A stretch of 59,778 nucleotides of DNA, from sequence record OL960575.1; one strand, given 5' to 3'. Below, one piece after another: positions 2,118-49,758 of this stretch; positions within the stretch are counted from its first letter, which is position 1, and each line of letters begins with the position of its first letter. Made by a program: the position numbers and the translations under genes. The stretch is from Escherichia phage vB_EcoS_SA80RD. Under the pieces are notes generated by a model that was given only the letters and a program-made list of their open reading frames with translations, was not told where the DNA came from and did not search any database.

Positions 2118-3614
2118 ATGGGTATTGATGCAACTCACCCGCTATATGACAAGTGGAAGGACGCATGGGTTAAGTGCAACGACTGCTATGAGGGTGAAGA
2201 TAAAATTAAGGAAGAAGGTGTTAAATATCTACCACCTTTAGCTTCCATGATTATTGATGGGATGAATAATCCTAATGATTTGGGCTTTCAACGTTGGCTT
2301 GCTTATCGTCTGCGTGCCAACTTCCCTGACGATTATTCAAGTGCGGTTACAAACAATTTAGGTCTGCTGCACCAGAAGCCTCCCACAATTCAGCTTCCCC
2401 CTGAAATGGAATACATGCGGGAGCTGTGTACTGCGGACGGGGAAGACATTATTGCTCTGCTACGTCGTATCAATGAAATGCAGTTAAAAAATGGACGTTT
2501 GGGTCTGCTGCTGGACTTGCCTAAAGGTGAGGATGTAAATAACAGACCTTATATTAGCGTTTATGATGCTTTATCCATTATTAACTGGGATGATGGTAAA
2601 GATGAATTGGGCAATATCAACTTGAACATGGTTGTTCTGGATGAAAGCGGTCCTGTACGTGTCAATCAGTTTGACTGGAAAGAAGAGAAGCGTTATCGCG
2701 TTCTACAATTAGGTCCAATGGACACAGATGAAGTTGCAGGTGGGGCGGTCTACTCCCAACATCTGTTTATTAACAATACCAATTATGATGAAGGGCAAAT
2801 GATTGCTCCTTATTATAAAGGTAATACGCTGGATGAAATACCTTTCCAGTTTGTCAATACAACAGATATTACCCCAGCACCGGAAGCGCCGCCATTGTTG
2901 GGTCTTGCTAACATTTGTCTAAGCATGTACCGAAGTGACGCGGATTACCGCCAAAGCTTGCATATGCAGGGTCAGGACACCTTAGTCGTTGTTGGTGGTA
3001 CTGGGGAGAATGGGGATAAAGCCCCTCAACGCATTGGCCCTGGCGCTGTCATTAACGTTGCTATTGGTGGTGACGCTAAATATGTAGGTGTTAGCGGTGA
3101 CGGTTTGTCCGAGCAACGTCTCGCACTAGCTGCGGATAAGCAAGAAGCCCAAATTAAAGCCGGGCAAATGGTAAACAACACCAAGAGCACGCAGGAATCA
3201 GGCAAAGCTATGAAAACGCGTATTGCTGCGCGTACAGCTAGCCTGATTCGAATTGCGTATACTGGTGCGGCAGGTTTGGAAAACTTGCTGAAGGTTTGCG
3301 CTAAGTGGATGGGCGCCGATCCCGAGAAAGTTGTGGTTAAGCCTAATCTTGAATTTACCAAGAGCATGTTTAACGGTCAGGACTTTGTTCAAATTATTAC
3401 TGCACGCAACCTTAAAGCTCCGATTAGCTTGCAGTCTATTCATGGCTGGCTTGTTGATCAGGGCTTAACCACACTAAGCTTTGAAGAAGAAATGGCAATT
3501 CTTGAGGAAGAGCTTAAGAAGTGGCCTCTGCCTGATGATGCTAAGGCTGATTTAAACGCAGAGCAGCAAGTAAACAAAGATCCTAAGGAAGACGACGCTT
3601 CCAATAAAGAATAG
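2118..3614 (+). CDS. portal protein
   Basis: 498 aa directly downstream of large terminase; RBS GGAGGG; acidic C-terminus typical of portals. Confidence 0.75.
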   Translation: MGIDATHPLYDKWKDAWVKCNDCYEGEDKIKEEGVKYLPPLASMIIDGMNNPNDLGFQRWLAYRLRANFPDDYSSAVTNNLGLLHQKPPTIQLPPEMEYMRELCTADGEDIIALLRRINEMQLKNGRLGLLLDLPKGEDVNNRPYISVYDALSIINWDDGKDELGNINLNMVVLDESGPVRVNQFDWKEEKRYRVLQLGPMDTDEVAGGAVYSQHLFINNTNYDEGQMIAPYYKGNTLDEIPFQFVNTTDITPAPEAPPLLGLANICLSMYRSDADYRQSLHMQGQDTLVVVGGTGENGDKAPQRIGPGAVINVAIGGDAKYVGVSGDGLSEQRLALAADKQEAQIKAGQMVNNTKSTQESGKAMKTRIAARTASLIRIAYTGAAGLENLLKVCAKWMGADPEKVVVKPNLEFTKSMFNGQDFVQIITARNLKAPISLQSIHGWLVDQGLTTLSFEEEMAILEEELKKWPLPDDAKADLNAEQQVNKDPKEDDASNKE

Positions 3615-43627: not shown

Positions 43628-44209
43628 CTATTTCAAATAGCGGGAAGTTATAATTGGATGCAAAGACACTTCTTCCTCAGATGTAACCACATTGGCAGAC
43701 GTACCAGTGGACCCGAAGCCGTTAGCACCGCGCTCAGTGGTTTTAAGCTCGTCTACTTCTACCAGTTGCACGCTGGGCAGCTTAATAAGCATAGCTTGCG
43801 CAATGCGGTCACCATGATTAACTGTAAAACAACCATCGTGATCAATAGTAAGCTTAACTTTAACTTCGCCAGTGTAATCGCTATCAATAACACCCACGCA
43901 GTTTGCTAGACGCACGTCGTTTTTGAATCCGTGTCCGCTACGGGAATAGACCATAAGCGCGTAACCTTCAGGAATATCAAACGCCAATCCTGTGCGGAAT
44001 ATGTGCTCGTAAGAGAAAATAATTTGTTCACATCCATCTTCACTCTTAAGGTCCGCGTGCAGGTCAAAGCAAGCAGCCCCAGCACTAGCAAACACTGGTA
44101 AAATAGCGGTGTCCGTTAAGCGTTTTACCCCAATTAACTTAGCCGGTCTGAGAGAAAGGATCTTATTCTGTAAGTTTATATTTCGTACCTCATTAATAAT
44201 ATCAGTCAT
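43628..44209 (-). CDS. dut: dUTP diphosphatase
   Basis: dUTPase motifs AGAACFDL, RSG, GVIDSDYTGE, GDRIAQ, RGANGFGSTG. Confidence 0.8.
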   Translation of the reverse strand: MTDIINEVRNINLQNKILSLRPAKLIGVKRLTDTAILPVFASAGAACFDLHADLKSEDGCEQIIFSYEHIFRTGLAFDIPEGYALMVYSRSGHGFKNDVRLANCVGVIDSDYTGEVKVKLTIDHDGCFTVNHGDRIAQAMLIKLPSVQLVEVDELKTTERGANGFGSTGTSANVVTSEEEVSLHPIITSRYLK

Positions 44210-44221
44210 AATTTCACCTTA

Positions 44222-44686
44222 TTAAGAATATGTACCTGTTTGGACAATGTGGTTAATAGCATGTGCTCTGAAGATTTCTCTAAAATCTTCAAGCTCTATT
44301 GTAGCGCGAATCGGTTCCTTCTTGATATAATAATTGAACTCATTAATATCAAAGACGGAAGGATTCATACATATAACAACTTTCCAACCAGCTCTAGGAA
44401 TCTTATACATTAAGACCGGAATTTTATTACATTCACGTGCAGACTTAACAGTTTGCTTCCACCATGTATTAACAGCAAGAGTTGCATGGTTTTTAATCTC
44501 TACACAATATTGACAAGTGTTATCAATGTCCGCACCACCTACAGCCGATTGATTCTGTCGTCTTTGTGCGATAGGTTTAGGTGGTAAAGGTCTACCGATA
44601 AGCTCATGTACTTCAGCATAAATATCGTTGAAAAAATCACAAGCTTCCCTTTCAGCTCTAGCCCCTTTGCTACGAATATTAACCAT
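44222..44686 (-). CDS. PD-(D/E)xK nuclease, Holliday-junction resolvase-like (putative)
   Basis: KGARAERE N-terminus and D...VEIK motif; GGAGAA RBS. Confidence 0.45.
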   Translation of the reverse strand: MVNIRSKGARAEREACDFFNDIYAEVHELIGRPLPPKPIAQRRQNQSAVGGADIDNTCQYCVEIKNHATLAVNTWWKQTVKSARECNKIPVLMYKIPRAGWKVVICMNPSVFDINEFNYYIKKEPIRATIELEDFREIFRAHAINHIVQTGTYS

Positions 44687-44697
44687 TTAATTCTCCA

Positions 44698-45180
44698 TCA
44701 CAATCCGTGGTTACTATGAAAACCAAATTTAGTTTCAGCTTCTTTACGAGCACTAACCGCTTCTTCAAACGTATCGAAATAGCCAAGAAAGCGATATTTT
44801 AATTTTGAACGTATCTGCGCCCTCCATTTGCCTACTTTTTGTTCATAACTCACGCCAGTAACACCGGAAGTATTATTTTTCATCATACTTAAATTATGGC
44901 AGTTAATAGACCGATTAGCAAGACGCAGATTCTCTATCCTGTTATCAATCCTGTCATGATTTATATGGTCGATCTCATAACCTTCCGGTATAGGACCGTA
45001 GTGCATCTCATAAATTATACGATGTTCGAGATATTTCTTTCCTTTGTATTTAATTTTCCAATAACCAGAAGTTGAACATATACTGCCAGCCACCTTACCT
45101 GGTCTAGCTCTAGTACCGGATGAAATCTTCCATAATAATCTACCATCATAATATTCAAAGACATCAACCCAATTGATCAT
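44698..45180 (-). CDS. HNH-AP2 homing endonuclease
   Basis: EIDHINHDRIDNRIENLRL HNH motif and AP2-like C-terminus; ATG 45180 with AAGGAGG RBS. Confidence 0.7.
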   Translation of the reverse strand: MINWVDVFEYYDGRLLWKISSGTRARPGKVAGSICSTSGYWKIKYKGKKYLEHRIIYEMHYGPIPEGYEIDHINHDRIDNRIENLRLANRSINCHNLSMMKNNTSGVTGVSYEQKVGKWRAQIRSKLKYRFLGYFDTFEEAVSARKEAETKFGFHSNHGL

Positions 45181-45227
45181 ATTTACCTCCTTTATATGTA
45201 TTTTAATATGAAGTAAAATCAATCTCA

Positions 45228-45260
45228 ATAAAAAAAGCGCAACGTTTTCACGCTGCGCTT
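45228..45260 (-). terminator. rho-independent terminator (minus strand)
   Basis: AGCGCAGCG-loop-CGTTGCGCT (one G-U pair) followed by U7 on the minus strand. Confidence 0.6.
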
Positions 45261-45361
45261 AGTTTAGATAAGGTACTTGACTATTCAGCTTCCCCTATCA
45301 CCGGTAAATTATACAGCCTCGCCAAAGGCTGGTGACGGTTTGGTACATCTGGCGCCGTCGC

Positions 45362-45501
45362 GTTAAACATCGTTCACATCGTTCAGTAAGTTGCGGGTTT
45401 ACCCTGTCCGCTCCAGGAAGCCCAGCGAAAGTAGTTGCTGTAAGGAGGTACAGCTACCGCTTTCAAGGGCTTGAGTTAAGCATCGTTCACTAAGTTAATG
45501 T
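45362..45501. repeat. non-coding region with repeated GTTAARCATCGTTCA motif
   Basis: CATCGTTCA at 45368, 45378 and 45481; no ORF across about 300 bp; internal palindromes. Confidence 0.4.
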
Positions 45502-45565
45502 TGTTAAATTGTTAAACCTCGTTAACTGTGGTTATCTTAAAGGATGCAGTCTTGAATGGCAAGCT

Positions 45566-45880
45566 TCAATTTTGCGCGGTTCCCTTTGCCGCTTTTGGTG
45601 CTAAAGTACCATCATTTAACATCAACTCAAAACCTGTTACTTGATCGGTTGGAACAATAGGGTAATTCATGATAGCCATGTGGATACGACACCCTCCATC
45701 ACATTCATCGATGTATTCATTACCCCAATAGTATAAATGCCCATCTCTTCGAATATCCATTGCTGTCGGGAAGTCTACAAGAATTCTTTTGATTTCTTTT
45801 CGTCCTTCTTTATGCAGATTAGTTTCAATACGGATAAGCTCCGCATAAATTGCTTCACAGATAGTATTTACAATTCCCAT
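45566..45880 (-). CDS. hypothetical protein
   Basis: About 104 aa from ATG 45880 with AAAAGGCGGA RBS. Confidence 0.4.
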   Translation of the reverse strand: MGIVNTICEAIYAELIRIETNLHKEGRKEIKRILVDFPTAMDIRRDGHLYYWGNEYIDECDGGCRIHMAIMNYPIVPTDQVTGFELMLNDGTLAPKAAKGTAQN

Positions 45881-46206
45881 GACCAGTCCGCCTTTTCTGT
45901 TTCGTTGATACATTGTACAAGTTGATCAATACTTACATCAACGTATATTTTGCTATCTTTAAGCTCTTCTACGAATTGTTCCTCGCAACGAATTGGATTA
46001 TGTAAACTTCCAATCTCATATACTTGAACATGAGGGATAAGCGGCAAAAGATAAGTCCTTACCAGTTTAATTAAAACGTCATGTTCATCTCGTTCTTGTA
46101 AATCAATATCATTGTCTTCACAAAAATATTCGAGAATATCACCATCACCGAAGCCAAATTTACTTGCTAAACCATAAGCAAATAATCTTAGAACGTTATC
46201 TTTCAT
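45868..46206 (-). CDS. acidic hypothetical protein
   Basis: 112 aa with AAGGAG RBS. Confidence 0.45.
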   Translation of the reverse strand: MKDNVLRLFAYGLASKFGFGDGDILEYFCEDNDIDLQERDEHDVLIKLVRTYLLPLIPHVQVYEIGSLHNPIRCEEQFVEELKDSKIYVDVSIDQLVQCINETEKADWSWEL

Positions 46207-46644: not shown

Positions 46645-46869
46645 ATGGTCATGCTGAATAAAGTATATAGCACAATGGGCGCGGATTATAAAGTTGTACG
46701 TCACCCGCGTACTGGTAAATTTGAAGCATACATCCGTCCAATGGGTGAAGGTTGGATGTATTACGGTACTTATGATGATGCTGAGCAAGCTTATAAAGAA
46801 GCGGAAAGTGCGGCGGAAGCATCCGAAATCATGGCAAGGTACGACGTCGATGATTACTATTTCAACTAA
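46645..46869 (+). CDS. hypothetical protein encoded opposite to the surrounding minus-strand genes
   Basis: 74 aa with GGAGGA RBS; ends at a bidirectional terminator. Confidence 0.45.
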   Translation: MVMLNKVYSTMGADYKVVRHPRTGKFEAYIRPMGEGWMYYGTYDDAEQAYKEAESAAEASEIMARYDVDDYYFN

Positions 46870-46873
46870 CAAT

Positions 46874-46900
46874 AAAGGGCCGAAAGGCCCTTTATTTATT
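46874..46900. terminator. bidirectional terminator
   Basis: AAAGGGCC-gaaa-GGCCCTTT followed by TATTTATTTG. Confidence 0.6.
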
Positions 46901-49232
46901 TGCTTAAGTCCTTGAAAACACTCTCAATTGACTCGTCTATATACCAACCCAATCCCCTGAAATTACGCTTCAACGCATCTTCACGCGTGACTGGAACGAG
47001 CGCACCCATGTCTACAAGTTGCTTGATGGTAAGGTCTGTTGCAGTACCTGCTCCCATCCTGTGATTCTTGAATGCTGCTAGACCGTAGGTTCTGCGTGTG
47101 ATAGTTGCCTTTGGAATAATACCGTCAACGCGCAGCTCCTTACGATCACATGCAATCTTACCGCCAAGATAGTCTTTGCAGACCTGACAGATAGCCTTCA
47201 CACGTGTTTCGTCATCACCGCCAATAGTACCTTTTTCCCATGCGTTGATCATGATGTCCTGTCCGTGCGTAACAAAATCTACCGCCCATTGCATGTCATT
47301 AGGTTGCACCACAGGATTGATCCAGTTTTCCCCCACCGCTAACAGTGACGCAAGACGTAGAGCTTTAAGGTGTGCACGGTTCCAAGGCTGACGGATTGCT
47401 TCGTCTTTGGTTGCGTTAATGTGTTCGTCACATAACAGGTTAAACTCCCGTTCAATCCTTTCAGCTTCAGGACTTAACTGGACTGTGACAGTTTGAAACT
47501 TCGCCATTGTTACTAAGGTGTGGTTAACAAGATGGCACACCATGTCCTTTAACTGCTGGGGCATTATAATCTCAGGGTTTTCGTTTGCAGGAACTCGATC
47601 TCCTTCATATTGCACAATGTGGAAACGGGACAAGAAACCGTCTTCCATCATTTCACGGGTTAATGCTTCAAAGAACGTGTCCGGCGTTGTTTCTCCCAGC
47701 ACGCTGAACGCCACCCCTTCCATCGTTTTGGTATTATTAGCCTTATCAGAATATCCGATACCGCCAACAACATCCATCGCACCAGATTTTTGATACACAT
47801 CTGTGATAGTTTGCTTCAGGGTATAGTTTGCAGTGCCAGGTTGAGCCGTTGCCATACCTTTAATGGTTTTGCCAAACTCGCCGTTAATATTCACAAACGA
47901 ACTATGATCCGCAAAACTTTTACGCAACGCAGGACCAGACGCATAGTTAGTCATGTCTACAAATTCATGAACTTGCGGTAATTGCTCCCCTACTTGTTTA
48001 CAAATATAGCTGGGCCCGGCGTGAAGCATCTCTTTACCCACACCAGATCGAGCAATAAGCACAAAATAACCGTTCAATCCTGTGTTGGTGATAGTATTCC
48101 ATACCTTACCGCACACACCAGACAGAAATGCTAACGATGCGGTGATTGCAATTTCTTTAACCGGACGCTGCGATGCTTTGTAGATATACTTTGCAAGCTC
48201 ACCAGCAAGCCCCGGCGGCCACTCAATAGCGGTTGCATCAATGGACGTACTTTCTGCAACTACTATTTCACCGGACGGGCTGACTGTGGTTACAGGCATT
48301 TCCGTTACTTGCTGCATTGTGCTGTGTGCGGCTTGCATACGGGCAGCGTAATCCCGCGCCAGCGCTGCTACGTTTTCCTGAGCAATACGCTCACGCTCCA
48401 TGCGACCGCGACACATACGCAAGCAACGGTCAATATGAACATTGTTCTTATTAGCCTTCTCACGTTTGCCCAGTGCACTATAACGGAACAGACGACGACA
48501 TTGCTCATTACTTTCCGTGTAGAATGCATACATAGAAATAAGGGCAAGGTCTGCTTCAGACTGGGAAGGGAATCCCATTTCAACCCATTCACCGTTAAAT
48601 AACCGTGCATACTTATCGCCGTTATCTGCTTCAAGCGCACGCTGATGAATAGTTGCATCATCTTCTACCGGATCTTTTTCTACCAGTTCAATTTCATATG
48701 TCTTGCGCTGAAGATCAATTTCATTCACAAGCATAGTAAGGTAATGATCACGTTCTGCAACTGGTTTGTTGTACACAGGATTACCAGTGCAGATAATAAA
48801 ACGCTCCTGACTATAAACCTCGACACCATCACGTCGACGGCCTTTACCGATGTTACCTCTTAACCACAGGTGAACACCCAAGCCTGAGCGACTCACTTCG
48901 GTGTAAGTATCGAACGCAGTCATGATCTGTTCGAAGCGGCGCAACTGCTCCGGCGTCGTGTGCTTCTTGGGGTCCGGTTCATTGGTTGCATTCTTCACAT
49001 CCAGATCAATGCAGGTGAACGGGTCTTGTGCAGTAAGCACGAAGCCAATATAAGGTTTATTGAAATGAGCGGCGCAACCTTTGGCAGCTTCAAACGTCAT
49101 AAGCATATCCGGATCGGTAACGTCCGCCGCCATCAAACGTCCGATATCGTTATCCCATATTAATGGGCGTTTATCTTCACCAGCAATAGCCCACTGATTG
49201 TATTGTTTGATTTCATCAGGAAATAATTTCAT
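46896..49232 (-). CDS. primase-polymerase / helicase (AEP-type primase with SF3-like ATPase)
   Basis: N-terminal GVHLWLRG prim-pol-like motif; central ARSGVGKE Walker A; ATG 49232 (track start 49241 is GTG). Confidence 0.65.
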   Translation of the reverse strand: MKLFPDEIKQYNQWAIAGEDKRPLIWDNDIGRLMAADVTDPDMLMTFEAAKGCAAHFNKPYIGFVLTAQDPFTCIDLDVKNATNEPDPKKHTTPEQLRRFEQIMTAFDTYTEVSRSGLGVHLWLRGNIGKGRRRDGVEVYSQERFIICTGNPVYNKPVAERDHYLTMLVNEIDLQRKTYEIELVEKDPVEDDATIHQRALEADNGDKYARLFNGEWVEMGFPSQSEADLALISMYAFYTESNEQCRRLFRYSALGKREKANKNNVHIDRCLRMCRGRMERERIAQENVAALARDYAARMQAAHSTMQQVTEMPVTTVSPSGEIVVAESTSIDATAIEWPPGLAGELAKYIYKASQRPVKEIAITASLAFLSGVCGKVWNTITNTGLNGYFVLIARSGVGKEMLHAGPSYICKQVGEQLPQVHEFVDMTNYASGPALRKSFADHSSFVNINGEFGKTIKGMATAQPGTANYTLKQTITDVYQKSGAMDVVGGIGYSDKANNTKTMEGVAFSVLGETTPDTFFEALTREMMEDGFLSRFHIVQYEGDRVPANENPEIIMPQQLKDMVCHLVNHTLVTMAKFQTVTVQLSPEAERIEREFNLLCDEHINATKDEAIRQPWNRAHLKALRLASLLAVGENWINPVVQPNDMQWAVDFVTHGQDIMINAWEKGTIGGDDETRVKAICQVCKDYLGGKIACDRKELRVDGIIPKATITRRTYGLAAFKNHRMGAGTATDLTIKQLVDMGALVPVTREDALKRNFRGLGWYIDESIESVFKDLSK

Positions 49233-49233
49233 C

Positions 49234-49758
49234 TTATACACCCAATTTGTTACAACCGTGGTTCTTGTGAAAATTGTGATCAGTTAATGCTTTACTTACA
49301 GCCATCTGTGCATCTTCAAAAGTATCATATACTCCAAGATATTTTGAAGTCCCGTCCACGCCTATACGAGCTTGCCATTTATTAGTACCTTTGTGAAATG
49401 TAACTCCATTTACTCCAGAGGTATTATTGCGTTTCTTACTTTGATTTCGACCATTTTCTTTGTGAGTAACTAAACGCAAGTTTTCAATGCGGTCGTCGTA
49501 ACGAACGTGATTAATATGATCAATTTCCATCCCTTCCGGTATAGGACCGTTGAACATTTCCCATACTATTCGTGAACGACGATATAGTTTACCATTAAGG
49601 GTAATACGAACATATCCTTTATCCGTAAGCGTACCTGCAACGCATCCTTCTTTTGCTCTTGCACCCATATCTTTCTTCCAATACAACACTCCTTCATTAT
49701 ATTGGAATACTACCGCCCATTGTGGGAAAGCTTTAATTTCAGCGGGAAACAGTTCCAT
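49234..49758 (-). CDS. HNH-AP2 homing endonuclease
   Basis: EIDHINHVRYDDRIENLRL plus AP2-like C-terminus ending ...HKNHG. Confidence 0.7.
   Translation of the reverse strand: MELFPAEIKAFPQWAVVFQYNEGVLYWKKDMGARAKEGCVAGTLTDKGYVRITLNGKLYRRSRIVWEMFNGPIPEGMEIDHINHVRYDDRIENLRLVTHKENGRNQSKKRNNTSGVNGVTFHKGTNKWQARIGVDGTSKYLGVYDTFEDAQMAVSKALTDHNFHKNHGCNKLGV

What the first reader, a model, noticed from the sequence alone, without database searches (positions are those of the whole stretch)
45265..45565. 300-bp ORF-free region with repeated CATCGTTCA motifs and internal palindromes, a candidate small RNA or cis element
Downstream of a strong minus-strand terminator (45228-45260) and upstream of the 44698 HNH gene there is no ORF on either strand. 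The segment contains GTTAAACATCGTTCACATCGTTCAGTAAGTT at 45362-45392 and a related GTTAAGCATCGTTCACTAAGTT at 45476-45497, plus short palindromes (GGGTTTACCC; GTAGTTGCTG...CAGCTAC). Conserved repeats in a protected non-coding island could be a structured RNA, a secondary origin or a homing-endonuclease-associated site.
Basis: seen in the sequence. Interest (0 to 1): 0.45.

Follow-up and report, generated by a model that had tools for sequence, protein, structure and literature searches.

The report
Conserved structured phage RNA gene
The "empty" 300 bases between two genes of this E. coli phage (genus Seuratvirus) hold an unannotated gene for a folded non-coding RNA about 300 nt long, whose one long hairpin always displays the ribosome's own CCUCC anti-Shine-Dalgarno sequence; no such RNA is described in Rfam or in the papers I could search.

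Summary
The repeats and palindromes are at the stated places (one start is off by 1 nt). The 9-mer TGAACGATG occurs nowhere else in the 59.8-kb window.

On the minus strand the segment reads as one unit:
- a sigma-70 promoter (45562-45534);
- about 300 nt without a conserved ORF;
- an intrinsic terminator (45260-45228).

About 25 relatives carry it: Seuratvirus phages and metagenome or read-assembly contigs. Six diverged lineages keep the promoter hexamers, a terminator and the same fold.
- In a hand-registered tally, 31 of 50 base pairs show compensatory double changes.
- The 21-bp hairpin P1 has replaced almost all its stem sequence, yet keeps CCUCC in its apical loop.
- G-U pairs fit only the minus strand.
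- Both mechanical ORFs are frame-shifted across conserved bases.

There is no Rfam match, no E. coli homologue and no paper.

Best reading: a stand-alone structured phage RNA (about 0.9). It probably acts by pairing its anti-SD loop with Shine-Dalgarno sequences, as CyaR and RNAIII do (about 0.35-0.4). The periodic UKAAC/AACGAUG arrays may be a protein-binding platform.

An origin, a DNA operator array or a protein decoy are not excluded. The HNH cassette junction (45308/45309) lies inside the RNA gene.

The parts
45534..45562 (-). Sigma-70-type promoter: -35 TTGCCA (45562-45557), 17-nt spacer, -10 TAAGAT (45539-45534). It begins 4 nt after the TGA stop codon (45568-45566) of the upstream 115-aa gene.
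   Evidence: Consensus scan; coordinates verified. The hexamers and the 17-nt spacing are kept while the spacer sequence changes. STP-SP5, L059 and L061 have TTGACA-17-TAATAT, and ECP2304 has TTGACG.
45228..45527 (-). Predicted primary transcript of about 300 nt (start inferred at 45527 +/- 3, end in the U-tract). It contains no conserved ORF.
   Evidence: Promoter and terminator. MFE -89.5 kcal/mol, z = -2.8. Homologues were found in 34 phage records, several IMG/VR, metagenome and Logan contigs. ORFs are not conserved. Transcription itself was not observed.
45475..45525 (-). 5' A/U-rich segment: six UKAAC pentamers at 10, 8, 9, 9 and 10 nt spacing. It includes copy a (GUUAACGAGGUUUAAC) and copy b (GUGAACGAUGCUUAAC) of the 16-nt unit. 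As DNA each unit is a near-palindrome, GTKAA-N6-TTAAC.
   Evidence: The array and its period are kept in STP-SP5, L059, L060 and L061. STP-SP5 differs by an 8-nt deletion of one unit.
45418..45472 (-). Hairpin P1: 21 bp in four segments (6+6+3+6), with the apical loop CCUCCU at 45448-45443. ACCUCCUUAC matches the last 9 nt of E. coli 16S rRNA plus the next base.
   Evidence: RNAalifold. 15 of 21 pairs show double changes over 7 sequences, 95% of cells are paired, 0 of 500 shuffles reach this, and slid controls give 1-4. A covariance model built from 5 sequences finds two lineages it was not trained on: L059 at E = 3e-11 and L061 at E = 1.4e-4. The loop core CCUCC is invariant. Identity to the rrsH 3' end was verified.
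45393..45417 (-). CCUGGAGCGGACAGGGUAAACCCGC: two interleaved 4-bp stems, CCUG/CAGG and GCGG/CCGC.
   Evidence: GCGG/CCGC becomes GUGG/CCAC in STP-SP5. A paralogous copy inside the insertion of L044 has CCAG/CUGG and CUGU/ACAG, with the loop GGAUAAAC kept. The L060 paralog keeps CCAG/CUGG, but its second stem CUGA/ACAG has one mismatched pair (A-A). The pseudoknot itself is inferred, because the two stems could instead be alternatives.
45362..45392 (-). Middle repeat segment AACUUAC-UGAACGAUG-UGAACGAUG-UUUAAC: tandem 9-nt units and copy c of the 16-nt unit. This is the most variable part of the RNA.
   Evidence: Dru_SM1 has three tandem units. L008, L037 and L042 have UUAACGAUG as the first unit. 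L044 and L060 carry an insertion of about 95 nt here. L061 has UUAACGAUGC-UUAACGAUG-UGAAC. The core AACGAUG is kept.
45334..45359 (-). Hairpin P3: GACGG [CGCCAGAUGUACCAAA] CCGUC, a 5-bp stem with a 16-nt loop that is almost invariant.
   Evidence: Invariant in 18 versions. In L061 the pair A-U becomes G-C, and the loop has a single U-to-A change.
45314..45331 (-). Hairpin P4: CAGCCUU [UGGC] GAGGCUG.
   Evidence: G-C becomes G-U in STP-SP5 and A-U in L061. The G-U variant pairs only on the minus strand.
45266..45300 (-). 3'-domain hairpin P5, in the diverged allele that travels with the HNH cassette. The allele boundary is at 45308/45309.
   Evidence: Identity to HNH-less phages starts at 45309. 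The two alleles keep the hairpin through compensatory changes: 3 of 6 outer pairs and 2 of 3 inner pairs.
45228..45260 (-). Intrinsic terminator AAGCGCAGCG-UGAAAA-CGUUGCGCUU followed by U7.
   Evidence: 11 pairs, 6 of them G-C. HNH-less relatives have a different terminator, GAGCCCAGG...CCUGGGCUUUUUU, at the same place.
45200..45228 (-). Separate promoter-like site (TTGAGA-17-TAAAAT) for the downstream HNH-PDDEXK nuclease genes. It is not part of the RNA but defines its 3' boundary.
   Evidence: Best-scoring promoter-like site in the scan, 10 of 12. HNH-less phages have TTGCGA/TTGAGA-17-TATAAA at the equivalent place.

Best explanation
The segment is a stand-alone gene for a structured non-coding RNA of about 300 nt, read from the minus strand. 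This is the same sense as the neighbouring replication and recombination genes.

Proposed sequence of events:
1. Host RNA polymerase starts at a sigma-70 promoter directly after the upstream gene.
2. It stops at an intrinsic terminator just before the next promoter.
3. The RNA folds into an A/U-rich 5' segment, a 21-bp four-segment hairpin (P1), a small two-stem element that may be a pseudoknot, a repeat-bearing linker, three further hairpins (P3, P4, P5) and the terminator hairpin.

The proposed mode of action is inferred, not shown. The apical CCUCC(U) loop of P1 has the same sequence as the anti-Shine-Dalgarno end of 16S rRNA. It would pair with GGAGG Shine-Dalgarno sequences of mRNAs, compete with 30S subunits, and so repress translation of strong-SD messages from host or phage. 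The periodic UKAAC / AACGAUG arrays and the U-tail would serve as a landing platform for a chaperone or another RNA-binding protein.

Likelihoods: that this is a functional structured RNA gene, about 0.9. That it works mainly through anti-SD pairing, about 0.35-0.4. The confidence given below is for the whole statement.
For: Shown by tools:

1. Transcription unit. A promoter-like site and a terminator bracket the segment on the minus strand. In six diverged lineages the -35 and -10 hexamers and the 17-nt spacing persist while the spacer changes. A terminator is always present, even though two unrelated terminator sequences are used.

2. Fold. RNAalifold gives a consensus with 12 covarying pairs among 18 near relatives. 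A curated 50-pair structure is 99.7% paired, no shuffle of 500 reaches it, and slid controls give 1-2 covarying pairs. After adding three more diverged lineages, 31 of 50 pairs show double changes and 233 of 241 cells are canonical (arms registered by hand). For P1 alone, 15 of 21 pairs covary.

3. Strand. The same pairs are canonical in 896 of 899 cells on the minus strand against 831 of 899 on the plus strand. The P1 model scores 90 bits on the minus strand and 15 on the plus strand.

4. Business end. P1 stems have turned over almost completely, but the loop keeps CCUCC in every lineage: CCUCCU, ACCUCCU, CCCUCCUU and CCUCCA. ACCUCCUUAC is identical to the 3' end of rrsH.

5. Not coding. The 29-aa minus-strand ORF and the 53-aa plus-strand ORF are frame-shifted in STP-SP5 across bases that are 100% conserved.

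6. Selection. The element is 97-99% identical in contigs whose adjacent 115-aa protein is only 54-64% identical.

7. Precedent from papers. [quoted passage not shown] RNAIII uses C-rich hairpin loops to mask ribosome-binding sites (PMC2837412; PMC11795201).
Against: - No transcript data exist for any Seuratvirus, so expression, ends and processing are all inferred.
- A 5-6 nt CCUCC loop would pair with nearly any strong SD. No specific target with extended complementarity was found in the phage, and the host could not be scanned.
- The exposed loop is short. Invariance of a loop fits protein recognition or a tertiary contact equally well.
- Other unpaired parts are as conserved as the CCUCC loop, and the anti-SD model does not explain them. 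These are the P3 loop CGCCAGAWGUACCAAA, the pseudoknot region and the AACGAUG units.
- The repeats are near-palindromes on DNA and start at about +2 of the promoter, so part of the conservation could be at the DNA level.
- Most covariation rests on few independent lineages (six). Two of the alignments were fitted to the structure (A9) or registered by hand.
Confidence: 0.4

Rival explanations
1. A protein-sequestering or decoy RNA. The folded RNA acts by binding a host or phage protein rather than mRNAs. In one version, the six-plus-three UKAAC/AACGAUG units at 8-10 nt spacing titrate a multimeric single-strand RNA-binding protein. In another, the P1 loop mimics the 16S rRNA 3' end, or the whole RNA is a decoy for a ribosome- or RNA-targeting defence nuclease.
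For: - The periodic array is unique in the genome and kept in all lineages, with whole-unit gains and losses.
- The middle repeat segment varies fastest. It shows unit gain in Dru_SM1 and a 95-nt structured insertion with a duplicated module in L044 and L060. This would fit an arms race.
- Several invariant loops have no obvious pairing partner in the phage.
- The loop and one further base are identical to the rrsH 3' end.
Against: - No candidate protein partner was identified.
- The always-adjacent 115-aa protein has no Pfam family and no fold match.
- The units resemble no known protein-binding RNA repeat that I could test. ToxI-type repeats are about 36 nt.
- Nothing links the RNA to a particular defence system.
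Confidence: 0.25
2. A replication origin or primer-RNA locus. The direct repeats are iterons for the phage primase-helicase (NrS-1-like prim-pol plus DUF3987, 1.3 kb away). Transcription from the promoter through the A/T-rich repeat block opens the DNA or supplies a folded pre-primer, as in T4/T7 promoter-dependent origins or ColE1 RNA II.
For: - There are clusters of 9-10-bp direct repeats, 6 + 3, about 100 bp apart, next to replication genes.
- The promoter is immediately followed by a block of about 50 bp that I counted as roughly 68% A+T.
- The repeat core CGTTCAC resembles the P4 type I iteron TGTTCACC. This comparison is from memory and was not tested.
- The phage family encodes RNase H and ligase in the same operon.
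Against: - Cumulative GC skew turns at about 23.5 kb and 51 kb, with no inflection at 45.4 kb.
- A strong terminator closes the unit in every lineage, and five hairpins with invariant loops covary. Iterons do not need either feature.
- The element stays about 99% identical in phages whose primase is only 76% identical.
- The middle repeat cluster tolerates replacement and a 95-nt insertion.
Confidence: 0.12
3. A cis-acting control region. One version is a DNA operator array: the near-palindromes GTKAA-N6-TTAAC at +2..+17, +38..+53 and +151..+166 are bound by a phage repressor. The other version is a leader, attenuator or processive-antitermination site that governs read-through into the downstream nuclease and dUTPase genes.
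For: - Three near-palindromic 16-mers occur here against 0.37 expected matches. The first keeps both half-sites in STP-SP5 while its spacer changes.
- The layout promoter - leader - terminator - genes is that of an attenuator.
- A 12-nt identity to the rrnH boxA region (UUUAACAAUUUA) was verified, with p about 0.03.
Against: - The palindromic half-sites of copies b and c decay in STP-SP5, and only AACGAUG is kept.
- The motif occurs at no other promoter of the phage.
- The downstream genes have their own promoter.
- The complementarity between hairpin P1 and the terminator seen in two alleles is lost in STP-SP5, so there is no conserved antiterminator (read).
- The boxA-like 12-mer lacks the GCUCU half and is not kept in L059 or L060.
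- DNA sites do not explain strand-specific covariation of five hairpins.
Confidence: 0.1
4. It encodes a small protein: either the 53-aa plus-strand ORF annotated in VogelGryff or the 29-aa minus-strand ORF annotated in Dru_SM1.
For: Both ORFs exist mechanically and were annotated by depositors.
Against: - Both are frame-shifted or truncated in STP-SP5, CAjan and L044 across nucleotides that are fully conserved.
- Neither has a Shine-Dalgarno sequence. The only SD-like string on the plus strand has no start codon within about 25 nt.
- The substitutions are compensatory in stems, not synonymous.
Confidence: 0.02

Closest known systems
CyaR (RyeE), an Hfq-dependent enterobacterial sRNA
   Same: It has its own sigma-70 promoter, an intrinsic terminator with a U-tail, and a hairpin loop carrying a conserved anti-Shine-Dalgarno sequence that pairs with the SD of target mRNAs and blocks ribosome binding (PMC2837412; PMC11795201).
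   Different: CyaR is about 87 nt (my recollection) with one functional hairpin. This RNA is about 300 nt with five or six structured elements, periodic UKAAC arrays and several other invariant loops. There is no sequence similarity, no Rfam hit and no match in E. coli genomes. It is phage-encoded. Hfq dependence is unknown.
Staphylococcus aureus RNAIII
   Same: It is a long multi-hairpin regulatory RNA whose conserved C-rich apical loops dock on G-rich ribosome-binding sites of several mRNAs. Long duplex stems are available to RNase III (PMC2837412).
   Different: RNAIII has three C-rich loops (H7, H13, H14), also encodes delta-haemolysin, and is chromosomal in a Gram-positive host. This RNA has a single CCUCC loop and no coding part.
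Phage immunity and regulatory antisense RNAs (P1/P7 c4, P4 CI, P22 sar, lambda OOP)
   Same: They are small phage-encoded RNAs with their own promoters. c4 and CI act through short repeated complementary elements, and c4 masks a ribosome-binding site. This comparison rests on my own knowledge and was not tested here.
   Different: Those RNAs act on specific complementary sites in the same phage. No extended complementary site exists elsewhere in this genome, and this phage is virulent.
Iteron-type origins of primase-helicase replicons (P4 ori/crr; lambda ori) and transcript-primed origins (T7, T4 oriF/G, ColE1 RNA II)
   Same: These have clusters of short direct repeats near the initiator gene and a promoter reading into an A/T-rich block. 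ColE1 RNA II is a folded pre-primer. This comparison rests on my own knowledge.
   Different: Here the unit is closed by a terminator, there is no skew inflection, the repeats tolerate insertion and replacement, and most of the conservation is explained by RNA pairing.
rrn boxA / lambda nut antitermination sites
   Same: The site is promoter-proximal, and UUUAACAAUUUA is identical to the 3' half of rrnH boxA and its flank.
   Different: The GCUCU half of boxA is absent, and the 12-mer is not conserved among lineages. This is probably a coincidence.

Membership tests
Any described RNA family (Rfam 15, 4227 models) | Score at or above the family's gathering threshold | tested here: not met
   No hit at gathering thresholds in the whole window. 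At E <= 10 over 45100-45700 there were only terminator-like chance hits far below threshold. Nothing was found in the element of the diverged homologues L061 and L059. ARAGORN found no tRNA or tmRNA.
Trans-acting base-pairing sRNA of the CyaR / RNAIII type | Independent transcription unit: own promoter and intrinsic terminator with a U-tract | tested here: met
   Both signals are conserved in six lineages although their sequences differ. The evidence is consensus-level only, and no transcript data exist.
Trans-acting base-pairing sRNA of the CyaR / RNAIII type | Conserved, structurally exposed seed (here an anti-SD, C-rich apical loop) | tested here: met
   CCUCC is invariant in the apical loop of P1 while 15 of 21 stem pairs covary. 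The loop is unpaired in the MFE, centroid and consensus folds.
Trans-acting base-pairing sRNA of the CyaR / RNAIII type | Demonstrated pairing with, and regulation of, target mRNAs; chaperone (Hfq/ProQ) binding | not testable with these tools
   Only a phage-internal complementarity scan was possible. It found nothing beyond chance 12-13-mers. The exact complement TAAGGAGGT precedes two plus-strand ORFs, at 23241 and 55700.
Iteron-type replication origin | Array of direct repeats (initiator sites) next to an A/T-rich unwinding block | tested here: inconclusive
   Repeats are present and lie in a block of about 50 bp that I counted as roughly 68% A+T. The same repeats lie inside a transcribed, terminator-closed unit, and one cluster is dispensable or variable.
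Iteron-type replication origin | Strand-composition (GC skew) switch at the origin | tested here: not met
   Cumulative skew has extremes at about 23.5 kb and 51 kb and decreases monotonically through 45.4 kb. In phages skew mostly follows transcription, so this is weak evidence.
Iteron-type replication origin | Binding by the initiator / initiation mapped there | not testable with these tools
   Needs EMSA or marker-frequency analysis.
boxA/nut processive antitermination site | boxA consensus GCUCUUUAACAA near the 5' end of the transcript | tested here: not met
   Only the 3' part matches (GAGGUUUAACAAUUUA against GCUCUUUAACAAUUUA). The match is not kept in L059 or L060. Chance p is about 0.03.
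Riboswitch / attenuator leader | Conserved alternative (antiterminator) pairing with the 5' arm of the terminator; terminator directly controls the downstream gene | tested here: not met
   Complementarity of CGCUGGGCUU (the 3' arm of P1) to both terminator alleles is lost in STP-SP5, which keeps the CAjan-type terminator (sequences). A separate promoter follows the terminator.
RNA anti-CRISPR / solitary CRISPR repeat unit | Clear similarity to a host CRISPR repeat (E. coli type I-E) | tested here: not met
   The repeat was taken from MG1655. The best local alignment is AGCGG---GGATAAACC. Between 46 and 309 of 1000 dinucleotide shuffles score as high. There is no Rfam CRISPR-DR hit.
Small protein gene | ORF conserved in frame among relatives | tested here: not met
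Type III antitoxin-like repeat RNA (ToxI type) | Tandem repeats of about 34-45 nt, each a toxin-binding unit, next to or mimicking a toxin locus | tested here: not met
   The units here are 9-10 nt, with 2-3 tandem copies. There is no toxin gene nearby. The unit length of the ToxI family is from my own knowledge.

The most novel reading that the evidence does not exclude
A virulent phage makes a folded RNA that displays a copy of the 16S rRNA anti-Shine-Dalgarno end on a rigid 21-bp stalk, next to a periodic single-strand array. It uses this RNA to reprogram translation globally. It would soak up strong-SD (mostly host) messages or an SD/anti-SD-directed host factor, while phage messages with weaker SDs keep being translated. 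That would be an RNA-based host shut-off or anti-defence device of a kind not described for phages.
Probability: 0.15. Interest if true: 0.8.

Novelty: new variant of a known kind. Interest (0 to 1): 0.6.

Why it matters
Few non-coding RNAs of virulent phages are known, and annotation pipelines either leave this locus blank or fill it with spurious small ORFs.

This one is a well-delimited, covariation-supported RNA of about 300 nt. It is present in every Seuratvirus examined, including members of the BASEL collection that grow on E. coli K-12. Loop and repeat mutants, Northern blots, RIL-seq and pull-downs are therefore directly feasible.

If the invariant CCUCC loop works as an anti-SD decoy, this would be a phage RNA acting on translation initiation in general. 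If the repeats prove to be initiator sites, it would locate the unknown origin of this phage group.

The locus also shows a homing-endonuclease cassette whose junction lies inside an RNA gene. This explains the two alleles of the 3' domain.

Tried and rejected
1. Rfam at gathering and permissive thresholds on the window and on diverged homologues gave nothing. ARAGORN gave nothing.

2. Host origin or mimicry by overall similarity. blastn against 5,426 E. coli genomes found no match.

3. CRISPR type I-E repeat mimic. I noticed GGAUAAACC after a stem, and CGGCGCCAG...AAACCG 39 nt later. Against the real MG1655 repeat the similarity is not significant.

4. rrn boxA. The 12-nt identity is real, but it is marginal (p about 0.03) and not conserved.

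5. Antiterminator pairing between the 3' arm of P1 and the terminator. It is present in two alleles and lost in STP-SP5.

6. Coding ORFs on either strand. They are frame-shifted.

7. Homology with the syntenic non-coding gaps of Nonagvirus (JenK1, Ec1-ASingh), PSTCR4 and Vid5. UUGGUAG...ACCCCUUUU looked similar by eye, but the P1 covariance model finds nothing there (best E = 2.2), and TKAAC arrays are absent.

8. Neighbouring 115-aa protein as an RNA partner. It has no Pfam family and falls in a PHROG of unknown function. The AF2 model is fair (pLDDT 82) but has no fold match in PDB or BFVD other than one unnamed BFVD entry of similar length at 53% identity, probably a homologue.

9. Specific phage mRNA targets. 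Only chance-level 12-13-mers were found.

10. GC-skew evidence for an origin. There is none at this site.

11. Literature. Six full-text searches found nothing on a Seuratvirus/Queuovirinae RNA, origin or this intergenic region. The CSP1/CSP1C point mutations lie elsewhere.

12. Collection scans for more distant relatives. IMG/VR (4 scans) and the metagenome collection gave only near-identical copies. The genome-collection scan gave only chance hits to a 18-mer. The useful diverged copies came from looking up homologues of the neighbouring protein.
Full report
**1. What the window is**

The segment and its flanks are 96-99% identical to Escherichia phages of the genus Seuratvirus (Queuovirinae), among them SA126VB, VogelGryff, OddieOddie, Dru_SM1, CAjan and Seurat.

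Genes around the finding run on the minus strand:
- a primase-helicase (46896-49241; NrS-1-like helix-bundle domain plus DUF3987);
- four small genes of unknown function, the last at 45566-45913 (115 aa; PHROG 25787, no Pfam family);
- the finding itself;
- an HNH endonuclease (44698-45180);
- a PDDEXK/'RusA-like' nuclease (44222-44686);
- a dUTPase.

**2. The observation**

One start is off by a base.

The repeats are far beyond chance:
- TGAACGATG occurs three times here and nowhere else in 59.8 kb.
- The 16-nt unit GTKAA-N6-TTAAC has 5 matches against 0.37 expected. Four fall here, representing three distinct sites, because the palindromic site is counted on both strands.
- Nine TKAAC pentamers fall in 303 nt against 0.97 expected. 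Six stand in a row at 10, 8, 9, 9 and 10 nt, and this is the only such array in the window.

On the minus strand the order is stop codon of the 115-aa gene (45568-45566), promoter (45562-45534), the ORF-free segment, terminator (45260-45228), next promoter (45228-45200), then the HNH gene.

**3. A transcription unit conserved as such**

The scan gives TTGCCA-17-TAAGAT and an 11-bp terminator with a U7 tract, both on the minus strand.

I collected relatives from several sources:
- the phage collection (34 records);
- IMG/VR;
- JGI/ENA metagenomes;
- contigs that encode homologues of the neighbouring 115-aa protein.

Six diverged lineages emerged:
- the window's own HNH-linked type;
- the CAjan/Seurat type;
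- Salmonella phage STP-SP5;
- L060 (Logan);
- L061/L062 (ENA);
- L059 (Logan, partial).

All keep the two promoter hexamers 17 nt apart while the spacer sequence changes. In three lineages the hexamers move closer to consensus (TTGACA...TAATAT). All complete copies end in an intrinsic terminator, although two unrelated terminator sequences are in use.

This is evidence for selection on starting and stopping transcription exactly here. No transcript data exist, so expression remains inferred.

**4. A conserved fold on the minus strand**

The minus strand folds more stably than its shuffles (-89.5 kcal/mol, z = -2.8).

RNAalifold on 18 distinct near relatives predicts hairpins P1, P3, P4 and P5 and a small stem in between, with 12 covarying pairs.

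A curated structure of 50 pairs in 7 helices gives these figures:
- 99.7% of cells paired;
- 12 pairs with changes on both sides;
- no shuffle of 500 reaches this;
- with the 3' partners slid by 1-3 columns, only 1-2 such pairs remain.

With the three more distant lineages added, helix by helix, 31 of 50 pairs show compensatory double changes and 233 of 241 cells are standard pairs. I registered the arms by hand for that tally.

For P1 I built a covariance model from five sequences. It recovers two lineages it was not trained on: L059 at E = 3e-11 and L061 at E = 1.4e-4. On the resulting alignment 15 of 21 pairs covary, 95% of cells pair, no shuffle of 500 reaches this, and slid controls give 1-4. 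That alignment is fitted to the model, which inflates the percentage paired. It does not explain the double changes.

Two results settle the strand. The same pairs are standard in 896 of 899 cells on the minus strand but only 831 of 899 on the plus strand, because many are G-U. The P1 model scores 90 bits on the minus strand against 15 on the plus strand.

**5. Anatomy (RNA sense, window coordinates; verified)**

- 5' A/U-rich segment with six UKAAC units (45525-45475).
- P1 (45472-45418), 6+6+3+6 bp, with apical loop CCUCCU.
- CCUGGAGCGGACAGGGUAAACCCGC (45417-45393), with two interleaved 4-bp stems.
- Linker AACUUAC-UGAACGAUG-UGAACGAUG-UUUAAC (45392-45362).
- P3 (45359-45334), whose 16-nt loop CGCCAGAUGUACCAAA is almost invariant.
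- P4 (45331-45314).
- P5 (45300-45266).
- Terminator (45260-45228).

The two interleaved stems could form an H-type pseudoknot, and two observations bear on this. GCGG/CCGC becomes GUGG/CCAC in STP-SP5. Two contigs (L044, L060) carry an insertion of about 95 nt that holds a second copy of the element. In that copy CCUG/CAGG has become CCAG/CUGG in both contigs. GCGG/CCGC has become CUGU/ACAG in L044 and CUGA/ACAG, with one A-A mismatch, in L060. The loop GGAUAAAC is unchanged. The two stems could also be alternatives, so I mark the pseudoknot as inferred.

It is broken in most relatives.

**6. What is invariant**

The stems of P1 have turned over almost entirely between lineages. The apical loop nevertheless always contains CCUCC: CCUCCU, ACCUCCU, CCCUCCUU and CCUCCA.

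In the window ACCUCCUUAC equals the last nine bases of E. coli 16S rRNA plus the next base, checked against rrsH.

Also kept in all lineages are the UKAAC array with its 8-10 nt period, the core AACGAUG of the tandem units, the two-stem element, and the loops of P3 and P4.

The middle repeat segment is the most plastic part. It shows a third tandem unit in Dru_SM1, altered first units in several contigs, and the structured insertion in L044 and L060.

**7. Not coding**

The plus-strand 53-aa ORF (annotated in VogelGryff) and the minus-strand 29-aa ORF (annotated in Dru_SM1) change frame in STP-SP5 through 2-nt and 1-nt indels. These indels flank stretches of fully conserved bases. Both ORFs are truncated in other relatives.

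**8. Conservation relative to neighbours**

Within the E. coli phages the element is 97-99% identical, even in contigs whose adjacent 115-aa protein is only 54-64% identical. The same holds in phages whose primase is 76% identical.

Against STP-SP5 it is about 76-77% identical. That is similar to the better conserved coding stretches nearby (70-78%), while the adjacent 115-aa protein is 42% identical. So it is as constrained as the core genes, not more.

**9. How it most likely works**

Shown: a promoter-to-terminator unit (at consensus level), a strand-specific conserved fold, an invariant anti-SD loop, and no conserved ORF.

Inferred: the RNA is made by host polymerase and acts in trans. Its CCUCC loop, held on a stalk of about two helical turns, pairs with GGAGG Shine-Dalgarno sequences and competes with 30S subunits.

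This is the mechanism established for the anti-SD hairpin loop of CyaR and for the C-rich loops of RNAIII (PMC2837412; PMC11795201). Few genes in this phage have a full AGGAGG. The exact complement TAAGGAGGT precedes only two small plus-strand ORFs. A bias against host strong-SD messages is therefore conceivable, but I could not scan the host.

I put the structured RNA gene at about 0.9 and the anti-SD mechanism at 0.35-0.4.

Several features are unexplained by this model: the periodic arrays, the P3 loop and the two-stem element. These are the main reason to keep a protein-binding or decoy RNA as the first rival (0.25).

**10. DNA-level rivals**

On DNA the 16-nt units are near-palindromes. 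The first sits at about +2..+17 of the promoter and keeps its half-sites in STP-SP5 while its spacer changes. That is what an operator would look like.

However, the half-sites of the other two copies decay there, and the motif is found at no other promoter.

Direct repeats near a primase-helicase gene also suggest iterons, but several points count against this:
- cumulative GC skew shows no inflection here;
- the unit is closed by a terminator;
- one repeat cluster tolerates replacement and insertion;
- most of the conservation is explained by RNA pairing.

These readings are not mutually exclusive with an RNA gene. I give them 0.12 (origin or primer) and 0.10 (operator or leader).

**11. Leads that failed**

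The following led nowhere:
- Rfam and ARAGORN;
- similarity to E. coli DNA;
- a resemblance to the type I-E CRISPR repeat, which was not significant;
- the boxA-like 12-mer, which is real but marginal and not conserved;
- an antiterminator pairing, lost in STP-SP5;
- homology with the syntenic non-coding gaps of other Queuovirinae-like genera;
- a fold match for the neighbouring protein;
- extended complementarity to phage mRNAs;
- the literature.

**12. The HNH connection**

Only four phage records and one metagenome contig carry an HNH gene at this site. In them, everything from about 44131 to 45308 is a diverged allele. That stretch covers most of the nuclease gene (62% amino-acid identity to Seurat's), the HNH gene, the terminator and the 3' domain of the RNA. 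The junction lies just after P4. The diverged 3' domain keeps hairpin P5 through compensatory changes.

This looks like a free-standing homing-endonuclease cassette that arrived with flanking DNA from another lineage. Whether the endonuclease cuts within the conserved RNA gene of HNH-less phages is an open and testable idea.

**13. Verdict**

The finding is real and larger than described: a previously undescribed structured phage RNA gene that is confined, as far as I could see, to Seuratvirus. It belongs to a known kind (phage- or host-encoded regulatory RNAs with an anti-SD loop) but to no known family, and its size and periodic arrays are unusual. Interest 0.6.

Noticed in passing
window 44131-45308 (junction at 45308/45309): A diverged cassette carries the HNH gene, a different allele of the PDDEXK/'RusA-like' nuclease (62% aa identity to Seurat's), its own terminator and the 3' domain of the RNA. 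The window's HNH gene body (about 44660-45171) does not align at the DNA level even with SA126VB's HNH at the same slot, so at least two different HNH genes occupy this site.
   Followed up: partly
L044 1140-1235 and L060 about 3510-3610: Two contigs carry an insertion of about 95 nt in the middle repeat segment. It folds into a G+C-rich hairpin and brings a second copy of the two-stem GGAUAAAC element plus a repeat unit. This is modular growth of the RNA or a small inserted element.
   Followed up: partly
L010 3308-3495 (JenK1), L011 about 3380-3500, L012 2854-3495 (PSTCR4), L013 3194-3281 (Vid5): Other Queuovirinae-like genera also have a non-coding gap ending in a terminator just upstream of the same nuclease gene. 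The gap is about 190 nt in Nonagvirus (95-100% conserved in 18 records) and 640 nt in PSTCR4, and Vid5 has a tRNA-Ser there. This slot seems to collect small RNA genes. No detectable homology to the Seuratvirus RNA was found.
   Followed up: partly
window 46645-46869 (+) and 46871-46896: A lone plus-strand 74-aa gene (PHROG 22269, with a weak AP2-domain match below threshold) sits among minus-strand genes. It is followed by a perfect bidirectional terminator and is conserved in Seuratvirus, Nonagvirus, Vid5 and PSTCR4. It could be a DNA-binding regulator.
   Followed up: no
window 45505-45516 (minus strand; RNA positions 18-29): UUUAACAAUUUA is identical to the 3' half of boxA and its flank in the E. 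coli rrnH leader (p about 0.03). Together with the 16S 3'-end match, it occurs in the same order as in an rrn operon. It is not conserved in L059 or L060, so it is probably a coincidence.
   Followed up: yes
MZ501110.1 bas25_0058 (L003 2652-2813) and PP596835.1 NGRRMQZB_64 (L028 1599-1688): Two deposited annotations place 'hypothetical protein' CDSs inside the RNA gene, one on each strand. Both are almost certainly spurious.
   Followed up: yes
window about 23.5 kb and about 51 kb: Cumulative GC skew has its maximum and minimum here, at the switches of gene orientation. If the phage has a skew-marked origin or terminus, these are the candidates.
   Followed up: no
window 45569-45600: The last 30 nt or so of the 115-aa gene form a stem (GCGG...CCGC) that is kept at the nucleotide level in all lineages, although the protein is only 42-64% identical overall. 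The C-terminal peptide (A.K.TAQ) is also conserved, so this may be protein constraint. It may instead be an upstream element of the RNA promoter, and on the plus strand it looks like a terminator.
   Followed up: no
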